Part shown: positions 35,908 to 45,859 of the stretch, piece after piece
How the letters are laid out: the number at the start of each line of letters is the position of its first letter
Numbering within the stretch: the first letter of the stretch is position 1
DNA from: a virus
Reading direction: 5' to 3' (one strand)
Length of the DNA: 64,000 bases
Virus record (IMG/VR): IMGVR_UViG_3300032050_000037
Coordinates: 32,001 to 96,000 of that record
Program-made: the position numbers and the translations under genes
Notes under the pieces: model-generated
Seen by the model: the letters and a program-made list of their open reading frames with translations, nothing else
What the model was told of the DNA's origin: nothing
The model's database searches: none

Positions 35908-36441
35908 ATGGAAATTGAATTATCTGATCATTTTGATCGTATGAATAAAGTTGTTGCCGAACTTTTAAAGGGCAATAATCCGACCCAGATTGCCTCTCTG
36001 ACGGGCTTTAAACGTTCTGATGTAGTAGAACTTATAGATGAGTGGAAAACCGTCGTATACAACGATACAAGCTCTAAGGAACGGGCTAAAGAGGCTATTT
36101 CAGGAGCAGACCAACATTACTCAATGTTAATTAAAGAAGCCTGGAAAACTGTAGAGGACGCAGATCAGGCAGGTCAATTAAATGTAAAAGCAAACGCTCT
36201 TAAATTAATTTCAGATATTGAAACAAAAAGAATTACTATGCTTAAAGAAGTAGGTCTTTTAGATAATGCTGAATTAGCATCACAAATTGCTGAAACAGAA
36301 CATAAGCAAGAAATATTAGTTAAAATATTAAAAGAAGTTACATCTTCTTGTCCTAAATGTAAAATGGATGTTGCAAAAAGATTATCACAAATAACTGGAA
36401 TAGTAGAGCCAGTAATAATAGATTCAGGAGAAGCATTATAA
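35908..36441 (+). CDS. HTH protein, probable terminase small subunit
   Basis: N-terminal HTH plus helical body; upstream of large terminase; TGGTATAAT promoter. Confidence 0.55.
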   Translation: MEIELSDHFDRMNKVVAELLKGNNPTQIASLTGFKRSDVVELIDEWKTVVYNDTSSKERAKEAISGADQHYSMLIKEAWKTVEDADQAGQLNVKANALKLISDIETKRITMLKEVGLLDNAELASQIAETEHKQEILVKILKEVTSSCPKCKMDVAKRLSQITGIVEPVIIDSGEAL

Positions 36442-36998
36442 TGTTTGAAAATTTTAAAAGAATTGGTGAAGAAATATATGTTTATGAAAATTTTTTATCC
36501 AAAGAAGAGTCAAACAATATAGTTGATATATTAGAAAAAATTAATGAAGAAGAATGGATTAAAGAAAATAATTTTTCTAGAACAGAACCATTGTCTGAAA
36601 TTATTAAATTAAGAAATAGAATTAATACCATGATACCAGAAGGCTTATATCTTGGAAAAGCAAGCACTGCAACTAGGTTGGTCAAAGGAAATTTTTGGGG
36701 AGAACATTCTGATATACATGATTTTACTGAAGCAGAAAATCTATCTAAGCTATACGTTGAAGGAACTCCATATAAAGAGTTAGAATTATCAATTTATGGT
36801 TTAGTAGTATATTTAAATAAATTTGAAGGCGGAGAAATATATTATCCGACACAAAATATAATTTATGCTCCAAATCAAGGAGACATGGTAATACATAGTG
36901 CATTACCAATTGCTTTGCATGGTGTAAAGCCAGTAATATCTGAAAAAAGATACTCATATAGTAATCACATATATAAGAAAGTAAAAGTCCCAGCATAA
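36441..36998 (+). CDS. 2OG-Fe(II) oxygenase
   Basis: HSD, YLNKFEGGEI, HGV, RY. Confidence 0.8.
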   Translation: MFENFKRIGEEIYVYENFLSKEESNNIVDILEKINEEEWIKENNFSRTEPLSEIIKLRNRINTMIPEGLYLGKASTATRLVKGNFWGEHSDIHDFTEAENLSKLYVEGTPYKELELSIYGLVVYLNKFEGGEIYYPTQNIIYAPNQGDMVIHSALPIALHGVKPVISEKRYSYSNHIYKKVKVPA

Positions 36999-38788
36999 TG
37001 TCTTTTGATTTTTCTGATTTAATTGATATTTTAGATGGCGAAGAATTTGAAGAGCGCCCAGTAGACCTAAAAACATTTGTTACTAGTCCAGAATATCTAG
37101 GATTGCCACCACTTTCAGAATATCAATATACATTAATTGAAAAAGGTTCTCAAATATATAAAGAGTCTACCTTAATTAAATTATTTGGAGAAGAGGAAGG
37201 CAAACGGAGATTTAAACAGACTTGTACAGAAATCATTGCTCAATTGGGTAAGGGTTCAGGAAAAGACTATACATCTACAATATCAGTTTCCTATATGGTT
37301 TACTTATTATTATGTTTAAAAGATCCAGCAACATATTACGGAAAACCACCTGGAGATACAATTGATATTATTAATATTGCTGTTAACGCACAGCAAGCAA
37401 ACAACGTATTTTTTAAAGGATTTAAAACACGTATAGATAGAAGTCCATGGTTTGTAGGAAAATATGATCCAAAAGCTTCTGAGATTAGATTTGATAAAAA
37501 TGTAAATGTATACTCAGGACATTCAGAAAGAGAAGCTTTTGAAGGGTATAACGTAATTGCTGTCATTCTAGACGAAATTTCTGGCTTCGCCACAGAAAAT
37601 ACAACTGGACATGATCAAGCTAAAACCGCAGATGCAATATACGATATGTATCGTGGATCTGTAATATCACGCTTTCCAGATTACGGTAAAGTAATTTTAC
37701 TTTCATTTCCTCGTTTTAAAAATGATCCAATCCAAAAATTTTACGACTCAGTAGTAGCGGAAAAAGAAACTATTATTAAATCTAAAATTTTAAAAATGAA
37801 TGAAGACCTACCAGACGGAACGCAGGGTAATGAAATAACGGTTGAATGGGAAGAAGATCATATAATTTCATATAATATTCCTAAAGTATATGCACTTAAA
37901 AGACCAACCTGGGACGTAAATCCTACTAAAAAAATTGAAGATTTTAAAATAGAATTTTATAAAAACATGCCAGATGCACTAAGTCGTTTTGCTTGCATGC
38001 CACCAGAAGCAATAGATGCATTTTTTAAATCAAGAGAAAAAATTGAATTAGCTTTTAATAATACTGCATTAGCCATAGATCAATTTGGAAGATTCGAAAA
38101 TTGGTTCGCCCCAGATCCAGACAAAGATTATTTTATACACGTAGATTTAGCACAAAAACATGACCACTGCGCTGTGTCTTTAGCTCATGTTCAAAAATGG
38201 GTAAACGTAAAAGTAACAGATACTTACTCACAACCAGCACCAATAGTTGAAGTTGATGCAATAAGATATTGGACACCTACTGCAGATAAATCAGTAGATT
38301 TTACCGAAGTTAAAGATTATATATTGGCTTTAAGAACTAAGGGATTCAAAATAAAAATATGCACATTTGACCGATGGAACTCTCATGATATGATGCAACA
38401 ACTTAAACAATATGGAATAAATACTGAAATTTTATCTGTTGCTAAAAAACATTATGACGACATGGCAATGGTTGTATTAGAAGAAAGACTACATGGGCCA
38501 CATATTCCATTATTAATAGATGAGTTACTTCAATTAAAAATTATGAGAGATAAAGTTGATCACCCAAGAAAAGGATCTAAAGACTTAGCAGATGCCGTAT
38601 GTGGATCAATTTATAATGCTATAAGTAGAACTAGGTTTGATTCAAATCAAGAAATCAAAATTCATACATATGAATCAATGAGTTTTGAAGATCATAATAC
38701 AGAAGAAGTCTTTGTACAAAATATGATAAGAGCTCCAAGAATGCCAGAAGATTTAAAAGAGTCAATAGACAGGATGATGACAATATGA
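36998..38788 (+). CDS. terL: Terminase large subunit
   Basis: Walker A GKGSGKD, Walker B VILDE, nuclease HVDLA, FDRW, KVDHP..GSKD.ADA. Confidence 0.9.
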   Translation: MSFDFSDLIDILDGEEFEERPVDLKTFVTSPEYLGLPPLSEYQYTLIEKGSQIYKESTLIKLFGEEEGKRRFKQTCTEIIAQLGKGSGKDYTSTISVSYMVYLLLCLKDPATYYGKPPGDTIDIINIAVNAQQANNVFFKGFKTRIDRSPWFVGKYDPKASEIRFDKNVNVYSGHSEREAFEGYNVIAVILDEISGFATENTTGHDQAKTADAIYDMYRGSVISRFPDYGKVILLSFPRFKNDPIQKFYDSVVAEKETIIKSKILKMNEDLPDGTQGNEITVEWEEDHIISYNIPKVYALKRPTWDVNPTKKIEDFKIEFYKNMPDALSRFACMPPEAIDAFFKSREKIELAFNNTALAIDQFGRFENWFAPDPDKDYFIHVDLAQKHDHCAVSLAHVQKWVNVKVTDTYSQPAPIVEVDAIRYWTPTADKSVDFTEVKDYILALRTKGFKIKICTFDRWNSHDMMQQLKQYGINTEILSVAKKHYDDMAMVVLEERLHGPHIPLLIDELLQLKIMRDKVDHPRKGSKDLADAVCGSIYNAISRTRFDSNQEIKIHTYESMSFEDHNTEEVFVQNMIRAPRMPEDLKESIDRMMTI

Positions 38789-39024
38789 ATATATACCAGG
38801 AAAAAGCAAAAGAATGTAAATGCTGTGGGAAGCATGTTCCACTTCCAACAACATTAAAAGAATATAATGGAATAACAGTATGCCCTACTACATTTTCTAA
38901 TATAGTAGAATATGCTAGAATATGGAATGCTGCAGGAAGTAGACCTTCGGGAAGTATAAGAAAACATTTTTCTGAATACGTTCAGCAAATAGTTGAAAAT
39001 GAATTAAATAAAAAGGATATCTAA
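38785..39024 (+). CDS. Small Zn-binding hypothetical protein
   Basis: CKCC...CPT. Confidence 0.5.
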   Translation: MNIYQEKAKECKCCGKHVPLPTTLKEYNGITVCPTTFSNIVEYARIWNAAGSRPSGSIRKHFSEYVQQIVENELNKKDI

Positions 39025-39026
39025 TT

Positions 39027-40007
39027 ATGAGTGTTAGCATTTCCAGCAATGAAATAAAAGTAGGAAATCTAAGATATTTTTCAGATGAAAATCTCATAAG
39101 TATAGTAGATGAAAAATTTACTTTAGAAAGTCAAGATAAAAAACATTTTTTTGCTGAAGATAATAGGTCTTTTAAAATTCTATCTAGCCAACCTAAAATT
39201 TTAATTAAAGTTCATCAAAATCCTCTTCACAATGTAATAAATACTTATGGAACAATTTTAAATTGTTTAAATATTTTTGAAAATCCATTATTTATTTTTA
39301 ATACTTATAATTTAAGGCCAGGGTACTTAAATCATAATCTAATTGAATTTTTTTATTGTTTTTTAAAAGATAATAATATAAATAGAATGTTCTTAGATCC
39401 TGCATTACATTCTCAAATATTAATCGATAATTTTTATTTTGCAATGCAATCAGACGACCAGCCAGTACCAAATCCAATTAATAAAATTAATGAAAAATTT
39501 TTAGACTATGTCGATAGAGATTATGAGCCATTTAGAAAAGTGTATGTAAGCAGAAAAAATATTGTGCCTAAAACTTATGAATTTGAAAAAAAGCAAGATT
39601 TACTTAAAGATTTTAAAGAAAGATTATCTGATGAATATATATTAGAAAAGTATTTTCAAGATAAAAATTTTGAGATAGTCTATCCAGAAAATTTTAATTC
39701 ATTTATAGAGCAAATAAACTATTTTAGTGAAGTTAAAACACTTATTTCTTTAAGTGGAGCAAGTGCAATGAATGGAATTTTTATGAAACCAAAAACTAAT
39801 ATTCTAGAAATATCAACAGAATTAGTTACTCCACATAATTCAAGAGAGCATGGAGGATTCATTAGAGCACAACATCATTTTTTTCATAACATTTCATATG
39901 AAAGAGATATATATTTTTATTCTATAAAAAATGATACCAAAAAGTCTGAGGACATAATTAATAAAATAGAATCAAATAAATTTTTAAAGGAGTTAGTTAA
40001 TGAATAA
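39027..40007 (+). CDS. Glycosyltransferase family 61-like
   Basis: KVYVSR, FEIVYPE..SF.EQI..F, GAS..N.IFM, ILEI. Confidence 0.75.
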   Translation: MSVSISSNEIKVGNLRYFSDENLISIVDEKFTLESQDKKHFFAEDNRSFKILSSQPKILIKVHQNPLHNVINTYGTILNCLNIFENPLFIFNTYNLRPGYLNHNLIEFFYCFLKDNNINRMFLDPALHSQILIDNFYFAMQSDDQPVPNPINKINEKFLDYVDRDYEPFRKVYVSRKNIVPKTYEFEKKQDLLKDFKERLSDEYILEKYFQDKNFEIVYPENFNSFIEQINYFSEVKTLISLSGASAMNGIFMKPKTNILEISTELVTPHNSREHGGFIRAQHHFFHNISYERDIYFYSIKNDTKKSEDIINKIESNKFLKELVNE

Positions 40008-41109
40008 TTTAAATATTGTTATTCCTATGGCTGGGCTAGGTACTAGATTTATAAATGCTGGTATTTTAGAACCAAAACCACTAATAAAAGTAAATAAAAA
40101 ATATTTAATAGAACATTCTGTATCAACTTTAGGAATAAAAGCTAGATATATTTTTATAACTAGAAATTATGAAAACGAAAATCATAACAGAAAACTTTCA
40201 GATTTATTAAAAACAATATCTCCAGAAAGCATAGAAATTAAAATAGACACTTTAACTAGTGGTGCTACCGAAACTGTTCTGTATGCTAAAGAATATATTA
40301 ATAATGATAATCCATTAATTATTACAAATTGTGATCAAATAATCAATTGGAATAGTCAAGATTTTTTAGAATTTGTTAGCGACGATAATTGTGACGGAGC
40401 AGTTGTATTATTTAAATCAAATGATTTAAAAAATAGTTTTGCTGAAATTAATAATAATTTAGTTACAAAAATTGCTGAGAAAGAAAGTATTAGTGATAAT
40501 GCTCTAGTAGGAATACATTATTGGAAAAATGGAAAAGATTTTGTATTTTCAGCACAAAATTTATTAAATACTTTTAGAAAATTAGGAACTCCAGAGTGTT
40601 ATATTTCTGAAACATATAATTATTTAATAGAAAATAATAAAAAAATATATCCATATTTTTTACAAAAACACGCCTACATTGCTCTAGGGACACCAGAAGA
40701 TCTAGAAAAATATAATGGAAAAGTTAGAGAGTACTATACAGAAAAACCAAAAACAATATTTTGCGATATTGATGGAACTATATTAAAACATTCACATAGA
40801 TTTAGTGATATAGGAAAAGCAGACCCAGAAATTTTAAATGGAGTATTAAATAAATTTAATGATTGGGATTCTAAAGGATATAAAATTATTTTAACTACCG
40901 CAAGAAAAGAATCAGCTAGAAGTATAACAGAAAAACATTTACAAAGTCTTGGTTTATGCTGGGATATGTTATTGATGAACATGACAAGCGGAAATAGATT
41001 TTTAATCAACGATAAACTTTTACCAGAAGACAATAACCGTGCTACTGCAATTAACTTAATTACAGATTCTGGATTTGATACTATAAATTGGACAGAGTAT
41101 GGATTATGA
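40000..41109 (+). CDS. Sugar nucleotidyltransferase fused to HAD phosphatase
   Basis: IPMAGLGTRF...PKPLI, LGTPEDL; C-terminal FCDIDGT, TAR, IND. Confidence 0.8.
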   Translation: MNNLNIVIPMAGLGTRFINAGILEPKPLIKVNKKYLIEHSVSTLGIKARYIFITRNYENENHNRKLSDLLKTISPESIEIKIDTLTSGATETVLYAKEYINNDNPLIITNCDQIINWNSQDFLEFVSDDNCDGAVVLFKSNDLKNSFAEINNNLVTKIAEKESISDNALVGIHYWKNGKDFVFSAQNLLNTFRKLGTPECYISETYNYLIENNKKIYPYFLQKHAYIALGTPEDLEKYNGKVREYYTEKPKTIFCDIDGTILKHSHRFSDIGKADPEILNGVLNKFNDWDSKGYKIILTTARKESARSITEKHLQSLGLCWDMLLMNMTSGNRFLINDKLLPEDNNRATAINLITDSGFDTINWTEYGL

Positions 41110-41426
41110 TAATAGATAATATTAAAAATATGAAAATGGGTTGGTTTATAGGAGATTTCGACCCATCAGTTTATAAAACAAAAGAGTTTGAGGTTGGATA
41201 TAAAGAGCATATTGCAGGAGAGCAATATGGTCATCATTACCATTCTAAAATTAAAGAAATTAATTTTTTAATAGAAGGAACTATGTTTATTCATAATAAA
41301 GAATTAAATGCTGGAGACATATTTATTTTAGAACCATTCGAAATAGCAGACCCAGAATTTATAACTAATTGCAAAATTATATGTATAAAAATACCTGGGA
41401 TAGTTGGAGATAAAATAAATATATGA
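41088..41426 (+). CDS. RmlC-like cupin
   Basis: GWFIGDF.P, HHYH....E; likely start 41106. Confidence 0.7.
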   Translation: MDRVWIMIIDNIKNMKMGWFIGDFDPSVYKTKEFEVGYKEHIAGEQYGHHYHSKIKEINFLIEGTMFIHNKELNAGDIFILEPFEIADPEFITNCKIICIKIPGIVGDKINI

Positions 41427-41512
41427 TTAAAAAAATTATTAATAAAATTAAATTTATTCTATGGATTAAAAAAAATAAAAAAGCTTTTAAAAAAAGGAAT
41501 TTTTTATACTAA
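41423..41512 (+). CDS. 29-aa Lys-rich microprotein (not in track)
   Basis: MIKKIINKIKFILWIKKNKKAFKKRNFLY; coupled at both ends. Confidence 0.55.
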   Translation: MIKKIINKIKFILWIKKNKKAFKKRNFLY

Positions 41513-42243
41513 TGATGCATTTAGATTATAGATTAGCTGATAAATTTAATGATATAGATTATAGATGTGATGATTTTAAAAAAAATCATGATGGTAAACA
41601 TATATTGTTTATAGGAGACTCATTTGCTGCAGGAGACGGTTTAGAAAAAGAAGAAACATGGTGTTATAGAGTATATAAAAAAATATCGGAAATAGAAAAA
41701 ACTAGTGGTTATTTTAATTTAGGAACATCTGGCTCAGCAATTAGTGATTCTATAGATCAATTTTTTAAGTATTGCTATCTATATTCTAATCCAGATGTAG
41801 TTTTTTTTGTAACAACTGAATTTAATAGAGAAGAAAGATATGGATTGTTTAAGGAAGACCATAGAAATTCTTTTATTTATAGAATTTATTTGTATTTAGA
41901 ACAATATTGTAGATCTAATAATATAAAATTATATACATTTTCTTGGATTAAATCAATAAATTTAAAACAACCAAAAAGAATTACTAAGGGTCCTTCCTGG
42001 TTAGAATTAGCAAACTCTAAGTATGAATTAATTAATAATCATGATATATTAAATAGATTTGAAACATTTTATGATTATGATAAAGATTATATGATGAAAA
42101 AAGTTTTTGAGTATGATAGATTGTCAAATAATGATTTAAATTCATTATGGGCAAGAGATAATTTACATCCAGGTACATCTTTTCATAAATTTTATTGTGA
42201 TTTTATATTTGATAAATATTTGATTGGAAAAAATAATGGATAA
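41512..42243 (+). CDS. SGNH/GDSL hydrolase-like protein
   Basis: FIGDSF, NLG.SG, RDNLHPG (DxxH). Confidence 0.7.
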   Translation: MMHLDYRLADKFNDIDYRCDDFKKNHDGKHILFIGDSFAAGDGLEKEETWCYRVYKKISEIEKTSGYFNLGTSGSAISDSIDQFFKYCYLYSNPDVVFFVTTEFNREERYGLFKEDHRNSFIYRIYLYLEQYCRSNNIKLYTFSWIKSINLKQPKRITKGPSWLELANSKYELINNHDILNRFETFYDYDKDYMMKKVFEYDRLSNNDLNSLWARDNLHPGTSFHKFYCDFIFDKYLIGKNNG

Positions 42244-43303
42244 CACTTATACAGAAATGTTTTATGATTGTATAATTAACAAATTAGACAATAAATATTT
42301 TAAATATTATCCAAGCATTGTAGATAAAATATATTATAATGAATTTTATAATTATACTGATAAAGATTATGGAGTTATTGAAAATAGATTTTCTTTATTT
42401 AAAAAAATAGATCCTGAAATAGATTTTATTTTAAATAAAGATGGATTTAGATCACCAGAATTTAAAGAAAATATTGATTTTTTAATAGCTGGATGTTCAA
42501 ATACTATGGGGGATGGATTAAGAACAGATAAAATTTGGTATGAATTATTATTAAAGGATAGTAAGTACACATATAATTCAATAGCACAGGCTGGTGAGAG
42601 CATTAATAGTCAGGTTGAAAAAATTTTTACTTACATAAAAAAATACAATAATCCAAAAAATATTTTATTTTTAATGCCAAATTTTGAAAGAATTAAAATT
42701 TTTAATTCTCCCATGTTTTTTACCTCCCATAAATTTGAAAATTATATATCAACACACTATGAATCAAATACAGATATTTACTATACTAACATGGATGATA
42801 AAACTAATATAAATTATTCAAATAAATCAATTGATGACTTAAATTCTTCTATAATATTTGATAATCAAAATGAAATAAAATATTTTAAAAGACCACTTTT
42901 GGCAGAAGAAGTTATACCTATACAAATGGCTCATATGTATTCTGCACAGAGTATAAATATTTTAGAAACATATTGTAAAAAAACTAATATAAATTTATTA
43001 TATGGCACTTGGGACTTACATTCAAATGAACTTTTAAAAAAACTTTCTAATGATAATAATTTTACAAATTTTATTGATCTAGAAAATAATAATTGGGTAA
43101 GAAAAAATTTAACTGATTATCCTATATACATAATAGACAGTTGTCATAGAGAATTTATTAAAGATATTTATTTCAATGTAGCGTTAGATTACTATATAAA
43201 TGAAAAAGAAAGTGCACATTTAGGTTTTCATAGACATATACATATAAGAGATATTTTTGCAAAACAATTAAACGATAGGTATGGATATGATTTTAAAGTT
43301 TAA
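42224..43303 (+). CDS. SGNH-like protein
   Basis: GFRS, AGCSNTMG, terminal AHLG...H. Confidence 0.55.
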   Translation: MEKIMDNTYTEMFYDCIINKLDNKYFKYYPSIVDKIYYNEFYNYTDKDYGVIENRFSLFKKIDPEIDFILNKDGFRSPEFKENIDFLIAGCSNTMGDGLRTDKIWYELLLKDSKYTYNSIAQAGESINSQVEKIFTYIKKYNNPKNILFLMPNFERIKIFNSPMFFTSHKFENYISTHYESNTDIYYTNMDDKTNINYSNKSIDDLNSSIIFDNQNEIKYFKRPLLAEEVIPIQMAHMYSAQSINILETYCKKTNINLLYGTWDLHSNELLKKLSNDNNFTNFIDLENNNWVRKNLTDYPIYIIDSCHREFIKDIYFNVALDYYINEKESAHLGFHRHIHIRDIFAKQLNDRYGYDFKV

Positions 43304-43370
43304 ATATTATTTACATAGATTTAAATTAAAATTTAAAAAAAATAAAAAAAGAGACAGGTATATATATTGA
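43287..43370 (+). CDS. 27-aa Lys-rich microprotein (not in track)
   Basis: MILKFKYYLHRFKLKFKKNKKRDRYIY; TGA overlaps the TTG start of the carbamoyltransferase. Confidence 0.55.
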   Translation: MILKFKYYLHRFKLKFKKNKKRDRYIY

Positions 43371-44848
43371 TAATACTTGGAATTAATGAAACTTCGCATG
43401 ATGCATCTTTATCATTAATTGAAGATGGGAATATCTTATTTGCTGGTCATGCTGAAAGATATAGCAAGAAAAAAAATGATTGGTATATCAATAATGATTT
43501 AATTAGTGATGCCCTGCAATACGGTTTTCCAGATCAGATAGCATATTATGAAAATCCATTATTAAAAGCTTCTAGATTATTATTAAAGGGTGGAAATGGT
43601 AATTGGGTTCCAAAATATCAAATTAAAAATATATTTAATAAAACCGTACCAGTTAAATATTTCAAACATCATTATTCGCATGCATGTGCTGGATATTATA
43701 CAAGTAAATTCGATGATGCAGTTATAGTTGTTTTGGATTCTATAGGAGAATGGAATACTTCTACAATATGGACGGGAGAAGGAGACAAAGTTAAATTAAA
43801 ACATAAACAAAATTATCCATTTAGCTTTGGATTATTCTATTCTGCTTTTACACAACTAGTAGGATTAAAACCAAATGAAGAGGAATATATTTTTATGGGT
43901 ATGGCTGGCTATGGAAACCCAGATAGATATTTTGATCAAGTAAATTCTTATTTTCCATCAATTACAAAACAAAAATATAATTTTCATAAAGGAATATATG
44001 ATTTTAATTGGGGAAGTATTCCATGTATGGCTGGATGGGAGAATAACTCTAAGTCTTGGTTTGATCAAAGAAATTTTGATTTAGCAGCAGCAGTCCAAAA
44101 GGTTTATACATTAAGACTTTTAGAATTTATGAAGTATGCAAAAGGTATAACTGGTAAAAATAAACTAGTTTTTATGGGCGGATGTGCTTTAAACTGTTCT
44201 GCTAATACTTTTTTATGGGATATATTTAAAGATATTTGGATAATGCCTAACCCAGGAGATGCTGGATCATCTTTAGGCGCAGCTGCTGCATTATATGGAA
44301 AACATTTAAATTGGAACAATCCTTATCTTGGATATAATATTAAAGGAGAATATCCAGTAGATAAAATAATTTCTGAGTTAAAAGAAAATAAAATTGTTGC
44401 AGTTGCAAACGGACGTGCAGAGTATGGACCTAGAGCATTAGGAAACAGAAGTATATTAGCCGATCCAAGAGACCCAGATATAAAAAATAAAGTTAATTTA
44501 ATTAAACAAAGAGAAATGTTTAGACCATTTGCGCCAGTTATAATGGAAGAATGTGCATCAGAATGGTTTGAAATGGAATTTACATCACCTTACATGCAAT
44601 ATGCAGTAAAATGTAAAAAACCAGAGATAGTTCCGTCTGTGGTTCATGTAGATGGAACTTCTAGAGTACAAACAGTAAATAGAAATCAGCATAGAGGTCT
44701 TTGGAGAGTATTAAATAAATTTTATCAAGAAACAGGAGTGCCATTATTATTAAATACTAGTTTAAATATTAAAGGGCAGCCTTTATTAAATGATATTGCT
44801 GATATTAATTTATGGAAATCTATTTATAAAAGTGATATACTAACTTAA
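43367..44848 (+). CDS. O-carbamoyltransferase, NodU/CmcH family
   Basis: HDAS, ERYS, HHYSH, MGMAGYG, GGCALN, EYGPRALGNRSILADP, HVDGTSRVQ, LNTSLN. Confidence 0.92.
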   Translation: MIILGINETSHDASLSLIEDGNILFAGHAERYSKKKNDWYINNDLISDALQYGFPDQIAYYENPLLKASRLLLKGGNGNWVPKYQIKNIFNKTVPVKYFKHHYSHACAGYYTSKFDDAVIVVLDSIGEWNTSTIWTGEGDKVKLKHKQNYPFSFGLFYSAFTQLVGLKPNEEEYIFMGMAGYGNPDRYFDQVNSYFPSITKQKYNFHKGIYDFNWGSIPCMAGWENNSKSWFDQRNFDLAAAVQKVYTLRLLEFMKYAKGITGKNKLVFMGGCALNCSANTFLWDIFKDIWIMPNPGDAGSSLGAAAALYGKHLNWNNPYLGYNIKGEYPVDKIISELKENKIVAVANGRAEYGPRALGNRSILADPRDPDIKNKVNLIKQREMFRPFAPVIMEECASEWFEMEFTSPYMQYAVKCKKPEIVPSVVHVDGTSRVQTVNRNQHRGLWRVLNKFYQETGVPLLLNTSLNIKGQPLLNDIADINLWKSIYKSDILT

Positions 44849-45438
44849 TGAATAAAGTTTTAATCATAGGTGGCACAGCCAGATCTTCTAAATTAATAAT
44901 AAAATCATTAGAAAAAGAAAATTTTATAATAGATTTAATAACTTACAGGCAAAAAAATAAAATTTATGGAGAATATAACTGGAAGTATTTAGATTTTGAA
45001 GATTATGAATCTGTTTTAAATTTTATTAGAGACCTACCAGTAAATTACTATAGTAAAATAATTTTTTTATCTGGAAATTCCATATCAGATAATATAACAA
45101 AAATTAATATAAAAGAATTAAAACTGTTTTATGACTCATATTTATTTAATTATAACTTATTAATTATAAATTGCATAAAATCATTAAATGAAAATGGACA
45201 TATTATCTTCATATCCTCAGTTGCTGCAAATAAAGCAATTTTAGACGCACATTATTCATCAGTAAAAGCTGGCAATCAAGCTTTAGTTAAATCTTTATCT
45301 TTGCATGTAAAAGAAAATCAAGCAATGATTTCAATATCTCCGTCAACCATAACAGAAGAAATAAGAAATGATATGGTAAATATAATATTAAGTGTAAATA
45401 AAAATGATAATGGTAAAATTTTTGAATTAGGCTATTGA
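44848..45438 (+). CDS. Short-chain dehydrogenase/reductase-like protein (short, possibly degenerate)
   Basis: VLIIGG, IFISS, YSSVK (YxxxK). Confidence 0.6.
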   Translation: MNKVLIIGGTARSSKLIIKSLEKENFIIDLITYRQKNKIYGEYNWKYLDFEDYESVLNFIRDLPVNYYSKIIFLSGNSISDNITKINIKELKLFYDSYLFNYNLLIINCIKSLNENGHIIFISSVAANKAILDAHYSSVKAGNQALVKSLSLHVKENQAMISISPSTITEEIRNDMVNIILSVNKNDNGKIFELGY

Positions 45439-45463
45439 CTAATTAATATACTATATATATAAT
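45435..45463 (+). promoter_or_regulatory. SigA-type promoter for the tRNA, TTGACT-17-TATAAT
   Basis: Near-consensus; 13 nt upstream of the tRNA. Confidence 0.7.
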
Positions 45464-45476
45464 TATATTGTTATGA

Positions 45477-45550
45477 GCAACAGTAGCTTAGTTGGTTAAA
45501 GCCCCGAACTCATAATTCGGCAATCGTAGGTTCAAGTCCTACCTGTTGCA
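45477..45550 (+). tRNA. tRNA with CAT anticodon (elongator Met or Ile2)
   Basis: Acceptor GCAACAG/CTGTTGC, anticodon arm CCGAA-CTCATAA-TTCGG, T arm GTAGG-TTCAAGT-CCTAC; CCA not encoded. Confidence 0.9.
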
Positions 45551-45562
45551 CAAAGGAGCAAA

Positions 45563-45859
45563 ATGGAAGAGCCAGGGGAAGACGATTTATTTCAATATTA
45601 TTTAGAAATAGGAGCAATTGAAATAGCTGGAATAGATCCTGATGGGGAGTTAATTTTTAAAGTAACAGAATATGCAGAGGAAGTTGCTCCAGAATTGTGG
45701 GATTCGCATACAAATTATGTTGATAAAACTTTAATAGATTTATTTAATAAGGACTTAATTTCAGTTGAATATGATGAAAATTTACAGGCAACTATAAGTT
45801 TAACACCAGAAGCATATAAAATAATAGAAGAAAAAGGTATTAGGCCAATTGATGAATAA
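45563..45859 (+). CDS. Acidic hypothetical protein
   Basis: SD AAGGAG; 98 aa. Confidence 0.6.
   Translation: MEEPGEDDLFQYYLEIGAIEIAGIDPDGELIFKVTEYAEEVAPELWDSHTNYVDKTLIDLFNKDLISVEYDENLQATISLTPEAYKIIEEKGIRPIDE

What the first reader, a model, noticed from the sequence alone, without database searches (positions are those of the whole stretch)
41423..43370. Twin Lys-rich micro-ORFs ending in an aromatic-x-Tyr motif, coupled to SGNH and carbamoyltransferase genes
Seen: MIKKIINKIKFILWIKKNKKAFKKRNFLY (41423-41512) and MILKFKYYLHRFKLKFKKNKKRDRYIY (43287-43370). They share length, charge and a terminal [FY]-[LI]-Y, and each overlaps the start of the next enzyme. Known: bacterial carbamoyltransferase loci of the sxtI-J-K-L type carry a tiny SxtK/DUF5989 protein ending in PFIY plus an SGNH enzyme. 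Inference: these are TM-less viral counterparts, i.e. an unrecognised peptide partner, membrane tether or substrate of the carbamoyltransferase-SGNH system.
Basis: partly seen in the sequence, partly recalled or inferred. Interest (0 to 1): 0.7.

Follow-up and report, generated by a model that had tools for sequence, protein, structure and literature searches.

The report
Tyrosine-tailed micro-proteins of phage carbamoyltransferase modules
The two tiny lysine-rich ORFs are real, conserved phage genes that always travel with a carbamoyltransferase and esterase-fold (SGNH-like) enzymes, and they look like free-standing copies of a tyrosine tail that related bacterial enzymes carry fused to their end, so they may carry the carbamoyl group between the two enzymes.

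Summary
Observation confirmed. Both ORFs exist as quoted and overlap their neighbours' stop and start codons. They belong to a family of at least 60 distinct 22-34 aa basic peptides ending [F/Y/W]-[I/L/M]-Y in related IMG/VR phages. The frame is under purifying selection (pN/pS 0.39, against 0.8-1.0 in the other frames). The motif occurs about 40 times more often than local-composition resampling predicts.

A motif-only scan of IMG/VR, not selected for the carbamoyltransferase (CT), found 26 such ORFs. All 26 lie beside a CT and/or an SGNH-like gene. In five genomes whose CT locus lacked one, the peptide sits next to an SGNH-like gene elsewhere on the genome.

Homology to DUF5989/SxtK could not be shown (Pfam, hhalign and a 1.8-billion-protein profile search all negative; no TM helix). 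A better counterpart turned up. Bacterial DUF6071 SGNH-like proteins are homologous to the phage enzymes (hhalign 95%). Each carries a basic linker and an invariant ...D-P/R-F/Y-I-Y-x tail fused to its C-terminus, and two lie near a CT gene.

Best reading (about 0.45): a soluble, DltX-like tyrosine shuttle that the CT loads and the SGNH-like transferases unload. This chemistry is untested. The scan had already flagged similar 'DPFIY(K)' phage micropeptides on other DNA (e1-5976863).

The parts
41423..41512 (+). mu1: 29-aa basic micro-protein MIKKIINKIKFILWIKKNKKAFKKRNFLY (net charge +11, terminal Tyr)
   Evidence: An orthologue, MKLINKIKLYLWTRKNKKAFQKRKFNY, sits in the same position before a 50%-identical SGNH-like gene in L086. 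Coupled at both ends (ATGA / TAATG).
43287..43370 (+). mu2: 27-aa basic micro-protein MILKFKYYLHRFKLKFKKNKKRDRYIY (alternative in-frame ATG at 43281)
   Evidence: Closest relatives are in L001 and L002 (MILKFKYYIYK...RFIY). Found in the phage genome by the family profile at E 1e-7.
41512..42243 (+). SGNH-like enzyme, GDS type, 243 aa, no signal peptide
   Evidence: Weak Pfam GDSL hit. Paralogue of the next gene. Row of family alignment A3.
42236..43303 (+). SGNH-like enzyme, GCS type, 355 aa, no signal peptide
   Evidence: No Pfam hit. A3 family invariants G-C-S ... H-x-G. hhalign to DUF6071: 94.8%, E 5e-8. The AF2 model matches TesA/GDSL/PatB folds.
43367..44848 (+). NodU/CmcH-type carbamoyltransferase, 493 aa, TTG start
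   Evidence: Pfam Carbam_trans_N and Carbam_trans_C; phrog_1601; 129 IMG/VR relatives.
41088..41426 (+). 112-aa gene of unknown function (phrog_24762) whose stop overlaps the mu1 start
39027..41109 (+). Context: GT61 glycosyltransferase (39027-40007) and nucleotidyltransferase-HAD fusion (40000-41109)
44848..45438 (+). Context: short-chain dehydrogenase-like gene coupled to the CT stop

Best explanation
mu1 and mu2 are translated genes for a family of soluble, strongly basic micro-proteins: an N-terminal basic/aromatic helix, a Lys-rich linker, and a terminal [F/Y/W]-[I/L/M]-Tyr. They are the free-standing equivalent of the basic linker plus D-P/R-F/Y-I-Y tail that bacterial DUF6071 SGNH-like proteins carry fused to their C-terminus. 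Proposed mechanism, by analogy with DltX/PatA acyl-tyrosine shuttles: the cytoplasmic carbamoyltransferase, the only group-activating enzyme in the genome, makes carbamoyl-AMP and puts the carbamoyl group on the phenol of the terminal Tyr. The diversified SGNH-like transferases (Ser of GDS/GCS) take it from the Tyr and pass it to acceptor hydroxyls, probably sugars made or modified by the neighbouring GT61, nucleotidyltransferase and SDR genes. Shown here: the gene is real, under selection and module-specific, and the split/fused relation with DUF6071 holds. Inferred: binding, Tyr carbamoylation, transfer and the acceptor.
For: 1. Coding. There are 42-65 distinct peptides of constant length and architecture although the DNA diverges. 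pN/pS is 0.39 in frame against 0.97 and 0.80 out of frame. The distance from the peptide's stop to the next start varies from -4 to +21 nt while the peptide end is kept. All three Ile codons and both Tyr codons are used in the motif.
2. Specificity. Observed 68 against 1.6 expected. In the scan for KDRFIY-stop, 26 of 26 mu-like hits lie beside a CT and/or an SGNH-like gene. Of 21 non-ORF chance hits, 2 have a CT, and it is of an unrelated fused type.
3. Genome-level triad. In five genomes whose CT locus lacks mu, mu lies directly beside an SGNH-like gene elsewhere on the genome, about 40 kb from the CT in G002. mu+CT loci without a nearby SGNH gene have SGNH-like genes elsewhere when the contig is long enough.
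4. Fusion evidence. All 28 DUF6071 homologues end in a basic stretch plus DPFIYP, DRFIYP, DPYIYP and the like. The Tyr is invariant in the 23 aligned, alongside the catalytic NGCS block. The phage SGNH-like family is homologous to the DUF6071 domain but stops before the tail. mu aligns to the last 9 columns of DUF6071, though not significantly on its own. DUF6071 lies near a CT in L082 and in a Mesorhizobium plasmid.
5. Precedent. In the FxYxxF shuttle motif, the Tyr of DltX or PatA is acylated and an SGNH protein (DltD, PatB) takes the acyl group from it. The NgPatA peptide is FIYANF (PMC12148441).
6. No MBOAT or AT3 gene in this complete 113-kb genome, which leaves the CT as the only candidate loader.
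7. Consistent topology. The phage and DUF6071 SGNH-like proteins have no signal peptide or TM segment, and their Tyr carrier has no TM segment either. The GDSL enzyme of the bacterial DUF5989 module has an N-terminal TM anchor, and its carrier has a TM helix. That GDSL shares the N..G.R..(x)G.S block with the phage family.
Against: There is no biochemical or expression evidence. Only half of the FxYxxF motif is present, and the Tyr is the last residue. A shuttle is needed in Dlt/Pat to cross a membrane, and here everything appears cytoplasmic, so the need for a carrier is unclear. NodU-type enzymes normally carbamoylate their final substrate directly. Carbamoyl-serine intermediates of serine hydrolases tend to be long-lived. 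One SGNH-like gene of this genome (G000 97405-98304) has no adjacent mu. The terminal aromatic-x-Tyr was part of my search criterion, so its 'invariance' within the phage set is partly ascertainment. The unbiased support comes from the profile hits and from DUF6071.
Confidence: 0.45

Rival explanations
1. Non-covalent accessory subunit. mu binds the SGNH-like enzyme and/or the CT through its aromatic-x-Tyr tail and acts as an activator, an assembly adaptor or a tether. Its cationic amphipathic helix would hold the enzymes at the anionic inner face of the membrane or on an anionic polymer. No group is ever attached to the Tyr.
For: The same linkage and fusion data apply. Net charge is +5 to +11, with moderate hydrophobic moment (median 0.57) and a central aromatic cluster. 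In the AF2 model of DUF6071 the basic segment before the tail forms a helix with pLDDT about 76.
Against: It does not explain why the Tyr, and not merely an aromatic residue, is invariant in DUF6071 and DUF5989. It also does not explain the match to the first half of a motif whose Tyr is known to be the chemical carrier.
Confidence: 0.22
2. RiPP-like precursor. The basic N-part is a leader and the terminal [F/Y/W]-I-Y is a three-residue core. An SGNH-like enzyme cuts it off and the CT carbamoylates it, as in crocagin biosynthesis (core IYW, esterase-fold peptidase CgnD, carbamoyltransferase CgnI).
For: The crocagin pathway combines a short C-terminal aromatic core, an SGNH/esterase-like leader peptidase and a carbamoyltransferase (PMC10070186). 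CgnD (8a2n) appears among the structural matches of the phage SGNH-like model at rank 14, E 3e-3. 2OG-oxygenase-like genes occur in several islands.
Against: No CgnB/CgnE-type peptide-binding proteins were seen. One to three highly diverged SGNH-like paralogues per genome fit poorly with a leader peptidase. The tail is fused to the SGNH-like enzyme itself in DUF6071. The island is otherwise made of sugar-handling genes. The CgnD match is weaker than the matches to generic GDSL esterases.
Confidence: 0.13
3. Highly reduced true homologue of DUF5989/SxtK that has lost its TM helix.
For: Shared F-I-Y near the C-end, and the same position directly before a CT gene. A few phage variants read ...PRPFIY. 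The GDSL enzyme of the DUF5989 module shares an N-terminal block with the phage SGNH-like family.
Against: No Pfam hit at E up to 10. hhalign aligned one column. The invariant WWLxP segment and the xxF end are absent. No SxtJ is present in the genome. Peptides this short cannot be tested for descent either way.
Confidence: 0.3
4. Chance ORFs, or a purely nucleotide-level element (spacer, promoter or ribosome-binding region) in A-rich DNA.
For: Local GC is only 23-25%. The AGG of the Arg codon can double as a Shine-Dalgarno sequence for the CT in some loci.
Against. The motif is kept where the ORF ends 13-21 nt before the next start, where it precedes other genes, and where it follows the CT.
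Confidence: 0.03

Closest known systems
C-terminal tail of DUF6071 (Pfam PF19547) GDSL/SGNH-like proteins of Actinobacteria and some Proteobacteria
   Same: A basic stretch followed by D-P/R-F/Y-I/L/V-Tyr at the very end. It is attached to an SGNH-like domain with the same N-G-C-S block I, and that domain is homologous to the phage enzymes (hhalign 94.8%). A CT gene lies nearby.
   Different: It is fused in cis after a disordered linker of about 50 aa, and one more residue (P/S/D/K/R) follows the Tyr. In the phages it is a separate gene with its own start and an N-terminal basic/aromatic helix. The function of DUF6071 is unknown.
DltX and the C-terminal hexapeptide of PatA-type MBOATs (acyl-tyrosine shuttle, FxYxxF)
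   Same: A micro-protein or tail whose F-x-Y tyrosine is the key residue, working with an SGNH-fold transferase. The NgPatA peptide FIYANF has the same F-I-Y.
   Different: The known shuttles are membrane-embedded, are loaded by an MBOAT, carry acetyl or D-alanyl, and have xxF after the Tyr. Here there is no TM helix, no MBOAT or AT3 gene in the genome, and the Tyr is the last residue. The loader would be an ATP-dependent carbamoyltransferase.
DUF5989 / SxtK (PF19451) with small hydrophobic ORFs, SxtI-type CT and SxtL-type GDSL
   Same: A tiny protein directly upstream of a carbamoyltransferase, with an invariant P-F-I-Y near its end and a GDSL enzyme in the module (L136).
   Different: DUF5989 is about 50 aa with an invariant WWLxP segment, a TM helix and a TLF end. 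No sequence or profile similarity to mu was detectable.
Crocagin RiPP pathway (CgnA core IYW, CgnD, CgnI)
   Same: A short peptide with an aromatic C-terminal tripeptide, found together with an esterase-fold protein and a carbamoyltransferase.
   Different: Crocagin needs CgnB/C/E, and its peptide is a substrate that is cut and cyclised. There is no sign of those genes here.

Membership tests
DUF5989 / SxtK (PF19451) | Match to the Pfam model over its cut-off | tested here: not met
   No hit for six mu peptides at E up to 10. None in the phage genome or in four related records. The model does find true members.
DUF5989 / SxtK (PF19451) | Invariant WWLxP followed by a TM helix | tested here: not met
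   A2 invariants W16 W17 L18 P20. In mu the longest run of non-polar residues has a median of 5 and a maximum of 10.
DUF5989 / SxtK (PF19451) | C-terminal A-P-F-I-Y-T/V-L/I-F | tested here: not met
   mu ends at the Tyr. Position -2 is F/Y/W and position -1 is mostly I. Pro is rare (...PRPFIY in L140).
DUF5989 / SxtK (PF19451) | Encoded directly beside a carbamoyltransferase gene | tested here: met
   for mu; for DUF5989.
DltX-type acyl-tyrosine shuttle | FxYxxF motif with invariant Tyr | tested here: inconclusive
   Only the FxY half is present. The Tyr is invariant, but this is partly by ascertainment. The motif definition comes from PMC12148441.
DltX-type acyl-tyrosine shuttle | Membrane micro-protein loaded by an MBOAT | tested here: not met
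   No TM segment. No MBOAT or AT3 gene in the complete genome.
DltX-type acyl-tyrosine shuttle | Works with an SGNH-fold transferase encoded with it | tested here: met
   Adjacency is shown, and the SGNH fold. That the two proteins work together was not tested.
DltX-type acyl-tyrosine shuttle | Covalent acyl-Tyr intermediate | not testable with these tools
   Needs mass spectrometry of mu after incubation with the CT, ATP and carbamoyl phosphate.
DUF6071-type tyrosine tail (split form) | Basic stretch plus D/K-P/R-F/Y-I/L-Y at the C-terminus | tested here: met
   DRFIY occurs in both.
DUF6071-type tyrosine tail (split form) | Partner SGNH-like domain homologous to DUF6071 | tested here: met
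   hhalign A3 vs A5: 94.8%, E 5.4e-8, 204 columns, ending before the tail. The Pfam DUF6071 model itself does not reach the phage genes.
DUF6071-type tyrosine tail (split form) | Significant sequence similarity of mu to the tail | tested here: inconclusive
   hhalign places mu on the last 9 columns, but with E 0.029 and probability 1.7%. The peptide is too short to test.
RiPP precursor (crocagin-like) | Dedicated peptide-binding and modifying proteins (CgnB/E, dioxygenase) beside the precursor | not tested
   Only generic 2OG-oxygenase-like genes were noted. No search for CgnB/E was made.

The most novel reading that the evidence does not exclude
A ribosomally made, soluble 'carbamoyl carrier peptide'. 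A NodU-type carbamoyltransferase loads the terminal tyrosine of a micro-protein of about 28 aa, and a radiating set of SGNH-like transferases deliver the carbamoyl group to different glycans. mu, the DUF6071 tail and DUF5989/SxtK would then be three packagings (free, fused, membrane-anchored) of one tyrosine-shuttle principle. That would extend the DltX/PatA mechanism from MBOATs to carbamoyltransferases and give SxtJ/K/L-type genes a testable role.
Probability: 0.35. Interest if true: 0.85.

Novelty: new variant of a known kind. Interest (0 to 1): 0.75.

Why it matters
Genes this small are missed by gene callers. Most members are below the 30-aa limit, and nothing was found in Pfam, PHROGs, the ESM Atlas or 1.8 billion representative proteins. 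If the shuttle reading holds, tyrosine-mediated group transfer would not be confined to membrane MBOAT systems, and carbamoylation of glycans could proceed through a peptide carrier. It would also give a function to two Pfam DUFs (6071 and 5989) and to the long-unexplained small genes beside SxtI-type carbamoyltransferases. Finally, it points to a fast-evolving surface- or glycan-modification island next to the terminase of abundant freshwater phages. Even without the mechanism, the result adds a robust new micro-protein family with a clear assay (+43 Da on a terminal Tyr).

Tried and rejected
- Pfam and PHROGs on the peptides: nothing, apart from one weak PHROG hit (E 0.017) judged spurious.
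- ESM Atlas: no usable hit.
- The search for homologous proteins refuses queries under 40 aa.
- Profile search of 1.84 billion representatives with A1: 0 hits. A 27-position profile has little power, so this is no evidence of absence.
- hhalign of mu against DUF5989: no alignment.
- The first DUF5989 bait (L085) found only 2 proteins.
- Alignment A3 was too diverse for the search for related loci. Single SGNH-like queries gave only 1-2 loci.
- The genome-contig scan with the CT gave a single bacterial locus, which led to DUF6071.
- DUF6071 was not found in 300 further genomes of that phylum.
- The AF2 model of DUF6071 leaves the last three residues below pLDDT 50, so the model says nothing about where the Tyr sits.
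- Frameshift fusion of mu to the upstream SGNH-like gene was considered and rejected as a general explanation. mu has its own conserved Met start and often follows unrelated genes (the 112-aa gene, g98, g79) or precedes the SGNH-like gene.
- L097 and L110 'KDRFIY' hits lie inside a longer gene in another frame, and their CT is a radical-SAM fusion. These are chance matches.
Full report
THE OBSERVATION. Both ORFs are present exactly as quoted.
- mu1 (41423-41512) starts in an ATGA overlap with the stop of a 112-aa gene. It ends in a TAATG overlap with the start of a 243-aa GDS-type SGNH-like gene.
- mu2 (43287-43370) has a further in-frame ATG at 43281, but AGGT lies 7 nt before 43287. It overlaps the 3' end of a 355-aa GCS-type SGNH-like gene, and its TGA overlaps the TTG start of a 493-aa NodU/CmcH carbamoyltransferase (CT).
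- That TTG is the true start: 77 orthologues begin M/L/V-IILGINETSHD at that codon.
- The region has the lowest GC of the window, 23-25%. In such DNA Lys-rich reading frames are easy to get, but open frames are not.
- The two ORFs are the only + strand ORFs of 18-60 aa in the 64-kb window that end [FYW][ILMFVT]Y.

SURROUNDINGS. The window is bases 32001-96000 of a 113-kb IMG/VR phage record that CheckV rates complete. The genes lie in an island just downstream of the terminase large subunit (36998-38788). The order is GT61 glycosyltransferase, nucleotidyltransferase-HAD, 112-aa protein, mu1, SGNH-like 243, SGNH-like 355, mu2, CT, SDR. In related phages the flanking genes are 80-98% identical, but the island content is shuffled.

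CONSERVATION.
- The CT retrieved 80 IMG/VR loci at 65-80% identity.
- In most of them an ORF of 26-33 aa ends at or near the CT start and reads ...[K/R/D][R/K/D][F/Y/W][I/L/M]Y. In others the same kind of ORF precedes an SGNH-like gene or follows the CT.
- 42 distinct peptides were aligned (A1). With later loci there are 62 distinct DNA versions and 65 peptides, of length 22-34 (median 28) and net charge +5 to +11.
- The DNA differs widely. The position of the stop relative to the next start ranges from -4 to +21, and synonymous codons are used within the motif. What is conserved is therefore the peptide, not a DNA element.
- Nei-Gojobori counts over 43 pairs give pN/pS 0.39 in the mu frame, against 0.97 and 0.80 in the two other frames.
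- K/R-rich small ORFs ending in the motif number 68 on the + strand of all loci. Local Markov resampling predicts 1.6, and the minus strand has none.
- An orthologue of mu1 precedes a 50%-identical SGNH-like gene in L086.

WHICH GENES mu TRAVELS WITH. The first loci were fetched with the CT, so I made two checks that do not depend on it.
- First, I scanned IMG/VR for the DNA pattern of KDRFIY-stop, which gave 47 places. Of these, 26 are mu-like ORFs, and every one has a CT and/or a member of the SGNH-like family in the fetched stretch. The other 21 are not ORFs, and they lack both genes except for two with an unrelated radical-SAM-CT fusion.
- Second, I looked at the CT loci that had no mu. 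In all five genomes examined, a mu gene lies directly beside an SGNH-like gene elsewhere on the genome, about 40 kb from the CT in G002. One example is MINKIKKYIKLKMQIRKIKKQINNPRPFIY.
- Conversely, mu+CT loci without a nearby SGNH-like gene have such genes elsewhere on the contig when it is long enough.
- The unit is therefore a genome-level triad: CT, mu and SGNH-like enzyme(s). There are one to three very diverged SGNH-like paralogues per genome. This genome has three, the third outside the window and without a mu.

COMPARISON WITH DUF5989/SxtK.
PF19451 members found here are about 50 aa and have invariant WWLxP and PFIY followed by three residues.
- They lie directly upstream of a small hydrophobic ORF and a 570-593 aa CT, and once with a TM-anchored GDSL enzyme.
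- SxtJ and SxtK are listed as 'unknown' and are proposed to act with SxtI (PMC2679770).
- mu nevertheless fails every membership test: no Pfam hit, no hhalign signal, no TM helix, and no SxtJ in the genome. Only F-I-Y and the genomic position are shared.

A BETTER COUNTERPART: DUF6071.
- The single bacterial locus retrieved with the phage CT was an Actinobacteria MAG with 45% CT identity. About 2 kb downstream of its CT, it holds a 296-aa protein that starts MYVYANGCSFTYGSEL and ends ...RRRIASAVQRDPFLYP.
- All 28 of its database homologues are DUF6071 (PF19547). All end in a basic stretch followed by DPFIYP, DRFIYP, DPYIYP, DPFIYD and similar.
- In the alignment of 23 of them, the tail Tyr is invariant, together with the N-G-C-S...T-Y-G-S block and the H-P...H block.
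- The phage SGNH-like family is homologous to the DUF6071 domain (hhalign 94.8%, E 5e-8, 204 columns). Its alignment ends before the linker and tail.
- mu aligns to the last nine DUF6071 columns. On its own this is not significant.
- Models of both proteins have the SGNH/GDSL fold, with TesA, GDSL esterases and PatB among the hits.
- A second DUF6071 gene, apparently truncated, lies next to a 495-aa CT on a Mesorhizobium plasmid.
- This is a fused-versus-split relationship: an SGNH-like domain with a tethered Tyr tail in bacteria, and an SGNH-like domain plus a free Tyr-tailed micro-protein in the phages.

MECHANISM.
In MBOAT-SGNH pathways an invariant Tyr in an FxYxxF motif is acylated. The motif sits on the micro-protein DltX or on the C-terminus of PatA. 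The acylated Tyr then serves as donor for the SGNH protein (DltD, PatB). The N. gonorrhoeae PatA peptide is FIYANF (PMC12148441).
- mu, the DUF6071 tail and DUF5989 all carry F-I-Y with an invariant Tyr and all sit with SGNH-fold enzymes.
- The phage genome has no MBOAT or AT3 gene, so the only enzyme able to activate a group is the CT.
- Topology is consistent. The soluble SGNH-like enzymes (phage and DUF6071, neither with a signal peptide) go with TM-less carriers. The TM-anchored GDSL goes with the TM-bearing DUF5989. That GDSL shares its N-terminal block with the phage family.
- I therefore favour a carbamoyl-tyrosine relay: CT to mu-Tyr to SGNH-like Ser to acceptor, probably a sugar.
- The weak points are these. 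Only half the motif is present. There is no membrane to cross. CTs normally act directly on their substrate. Nothing was measured.

RIVALS. The alternatives are a non-covalent adaptor or tether, and a crocagin-like RiPP precursor. The crocagin pathway has the core IYW, the esterase-fold peptidase CgnD and the carbamoyltransferase CgnI (PMC10070186), and CgnD is a weak structural hit. The fused DUF6071 tail, the multiple diverged SGNH-like paralogues and the sugar-handling neighbours fit the RiPP reading less well. Chance ORFs or a DNA-level element are excluded for practical purposes.

NOVELTY. No paper in the held library mentions DUF5989 or DUF6071, or links carbamoyltransferases to acyl shuttles. 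The family is absent from Pfam, PHROGs and the Atlas. Within this scan, similar phage 'DPFIY(K)' micropeptides and the shuttle idea for DUF5989 had already been noted on other DNA. New here are the genome-level triad, the selection test, the scan that did not depend on the CT, and the DUF6071 fusion. I rate it a new variant of a known kind (a tyrosine-tail shuttle micro-protein), with the chemistry unproven.

Noticed in passing
window 38785-45563, compared with L001-L080: The island between the terminase (g596-g79) and g98 is hypervariable among phages whose flanking genes are 80-98% identical. The numbers and order of SGNH-like genes, mu and CT differ from phage to phage, and some islands carry 2OG-oxygenase-like genes.
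   Followed up: partly
G000:C1:97405-98304 (L146 1903-2811), just beyond the window end: A third SGNH-like (GCS-type) gene of this phage, downstream of katG, has no mu beside it. A 32-aa hydrophobic ORF (L146 1795-1893) precedes it.
   Followed up: partly
L097 4480-7407 (also L110): A 975-aa ORF fuses a radical-SAM-like N-terminal half to a carbamoyltransferase. It is a different CT architecture in another phage group.
   Followed up: no
L089, L092, L106, L122, L131: In this phage group mu (…KKNNDKDRFIY) begins inside the 3' end of the CT gene and follows it rather than preceding it.
   Followed up: no
L147 6959-7890 (Mesorhizobium huakuii plasmid NZ_CP050298.1): The DUF6071 gene next to a 495-aa CT appears truncated or frameshifted (218 aa, no Tyr tail in frame). 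An aminotransferase precedes it, as one also precedes the CT in L082.
   Followed up: partly
L135 7268-7489 and L136 6337-6567: The 73-76-aa hydrophobic ORFs between DUF5989 and the CT, where SxtJ would be expected, gave no Pfam hit at E 0.001.
   Followed up: no
window 36441-36998: The 185-aa gene before the terminase hits both a PHROG 'DNA endonuclease' family and the C-terminal part of a 2OG-Fe(II) oxygenase family. Relatives recur inside several of the variable islands.
   Followed up: no
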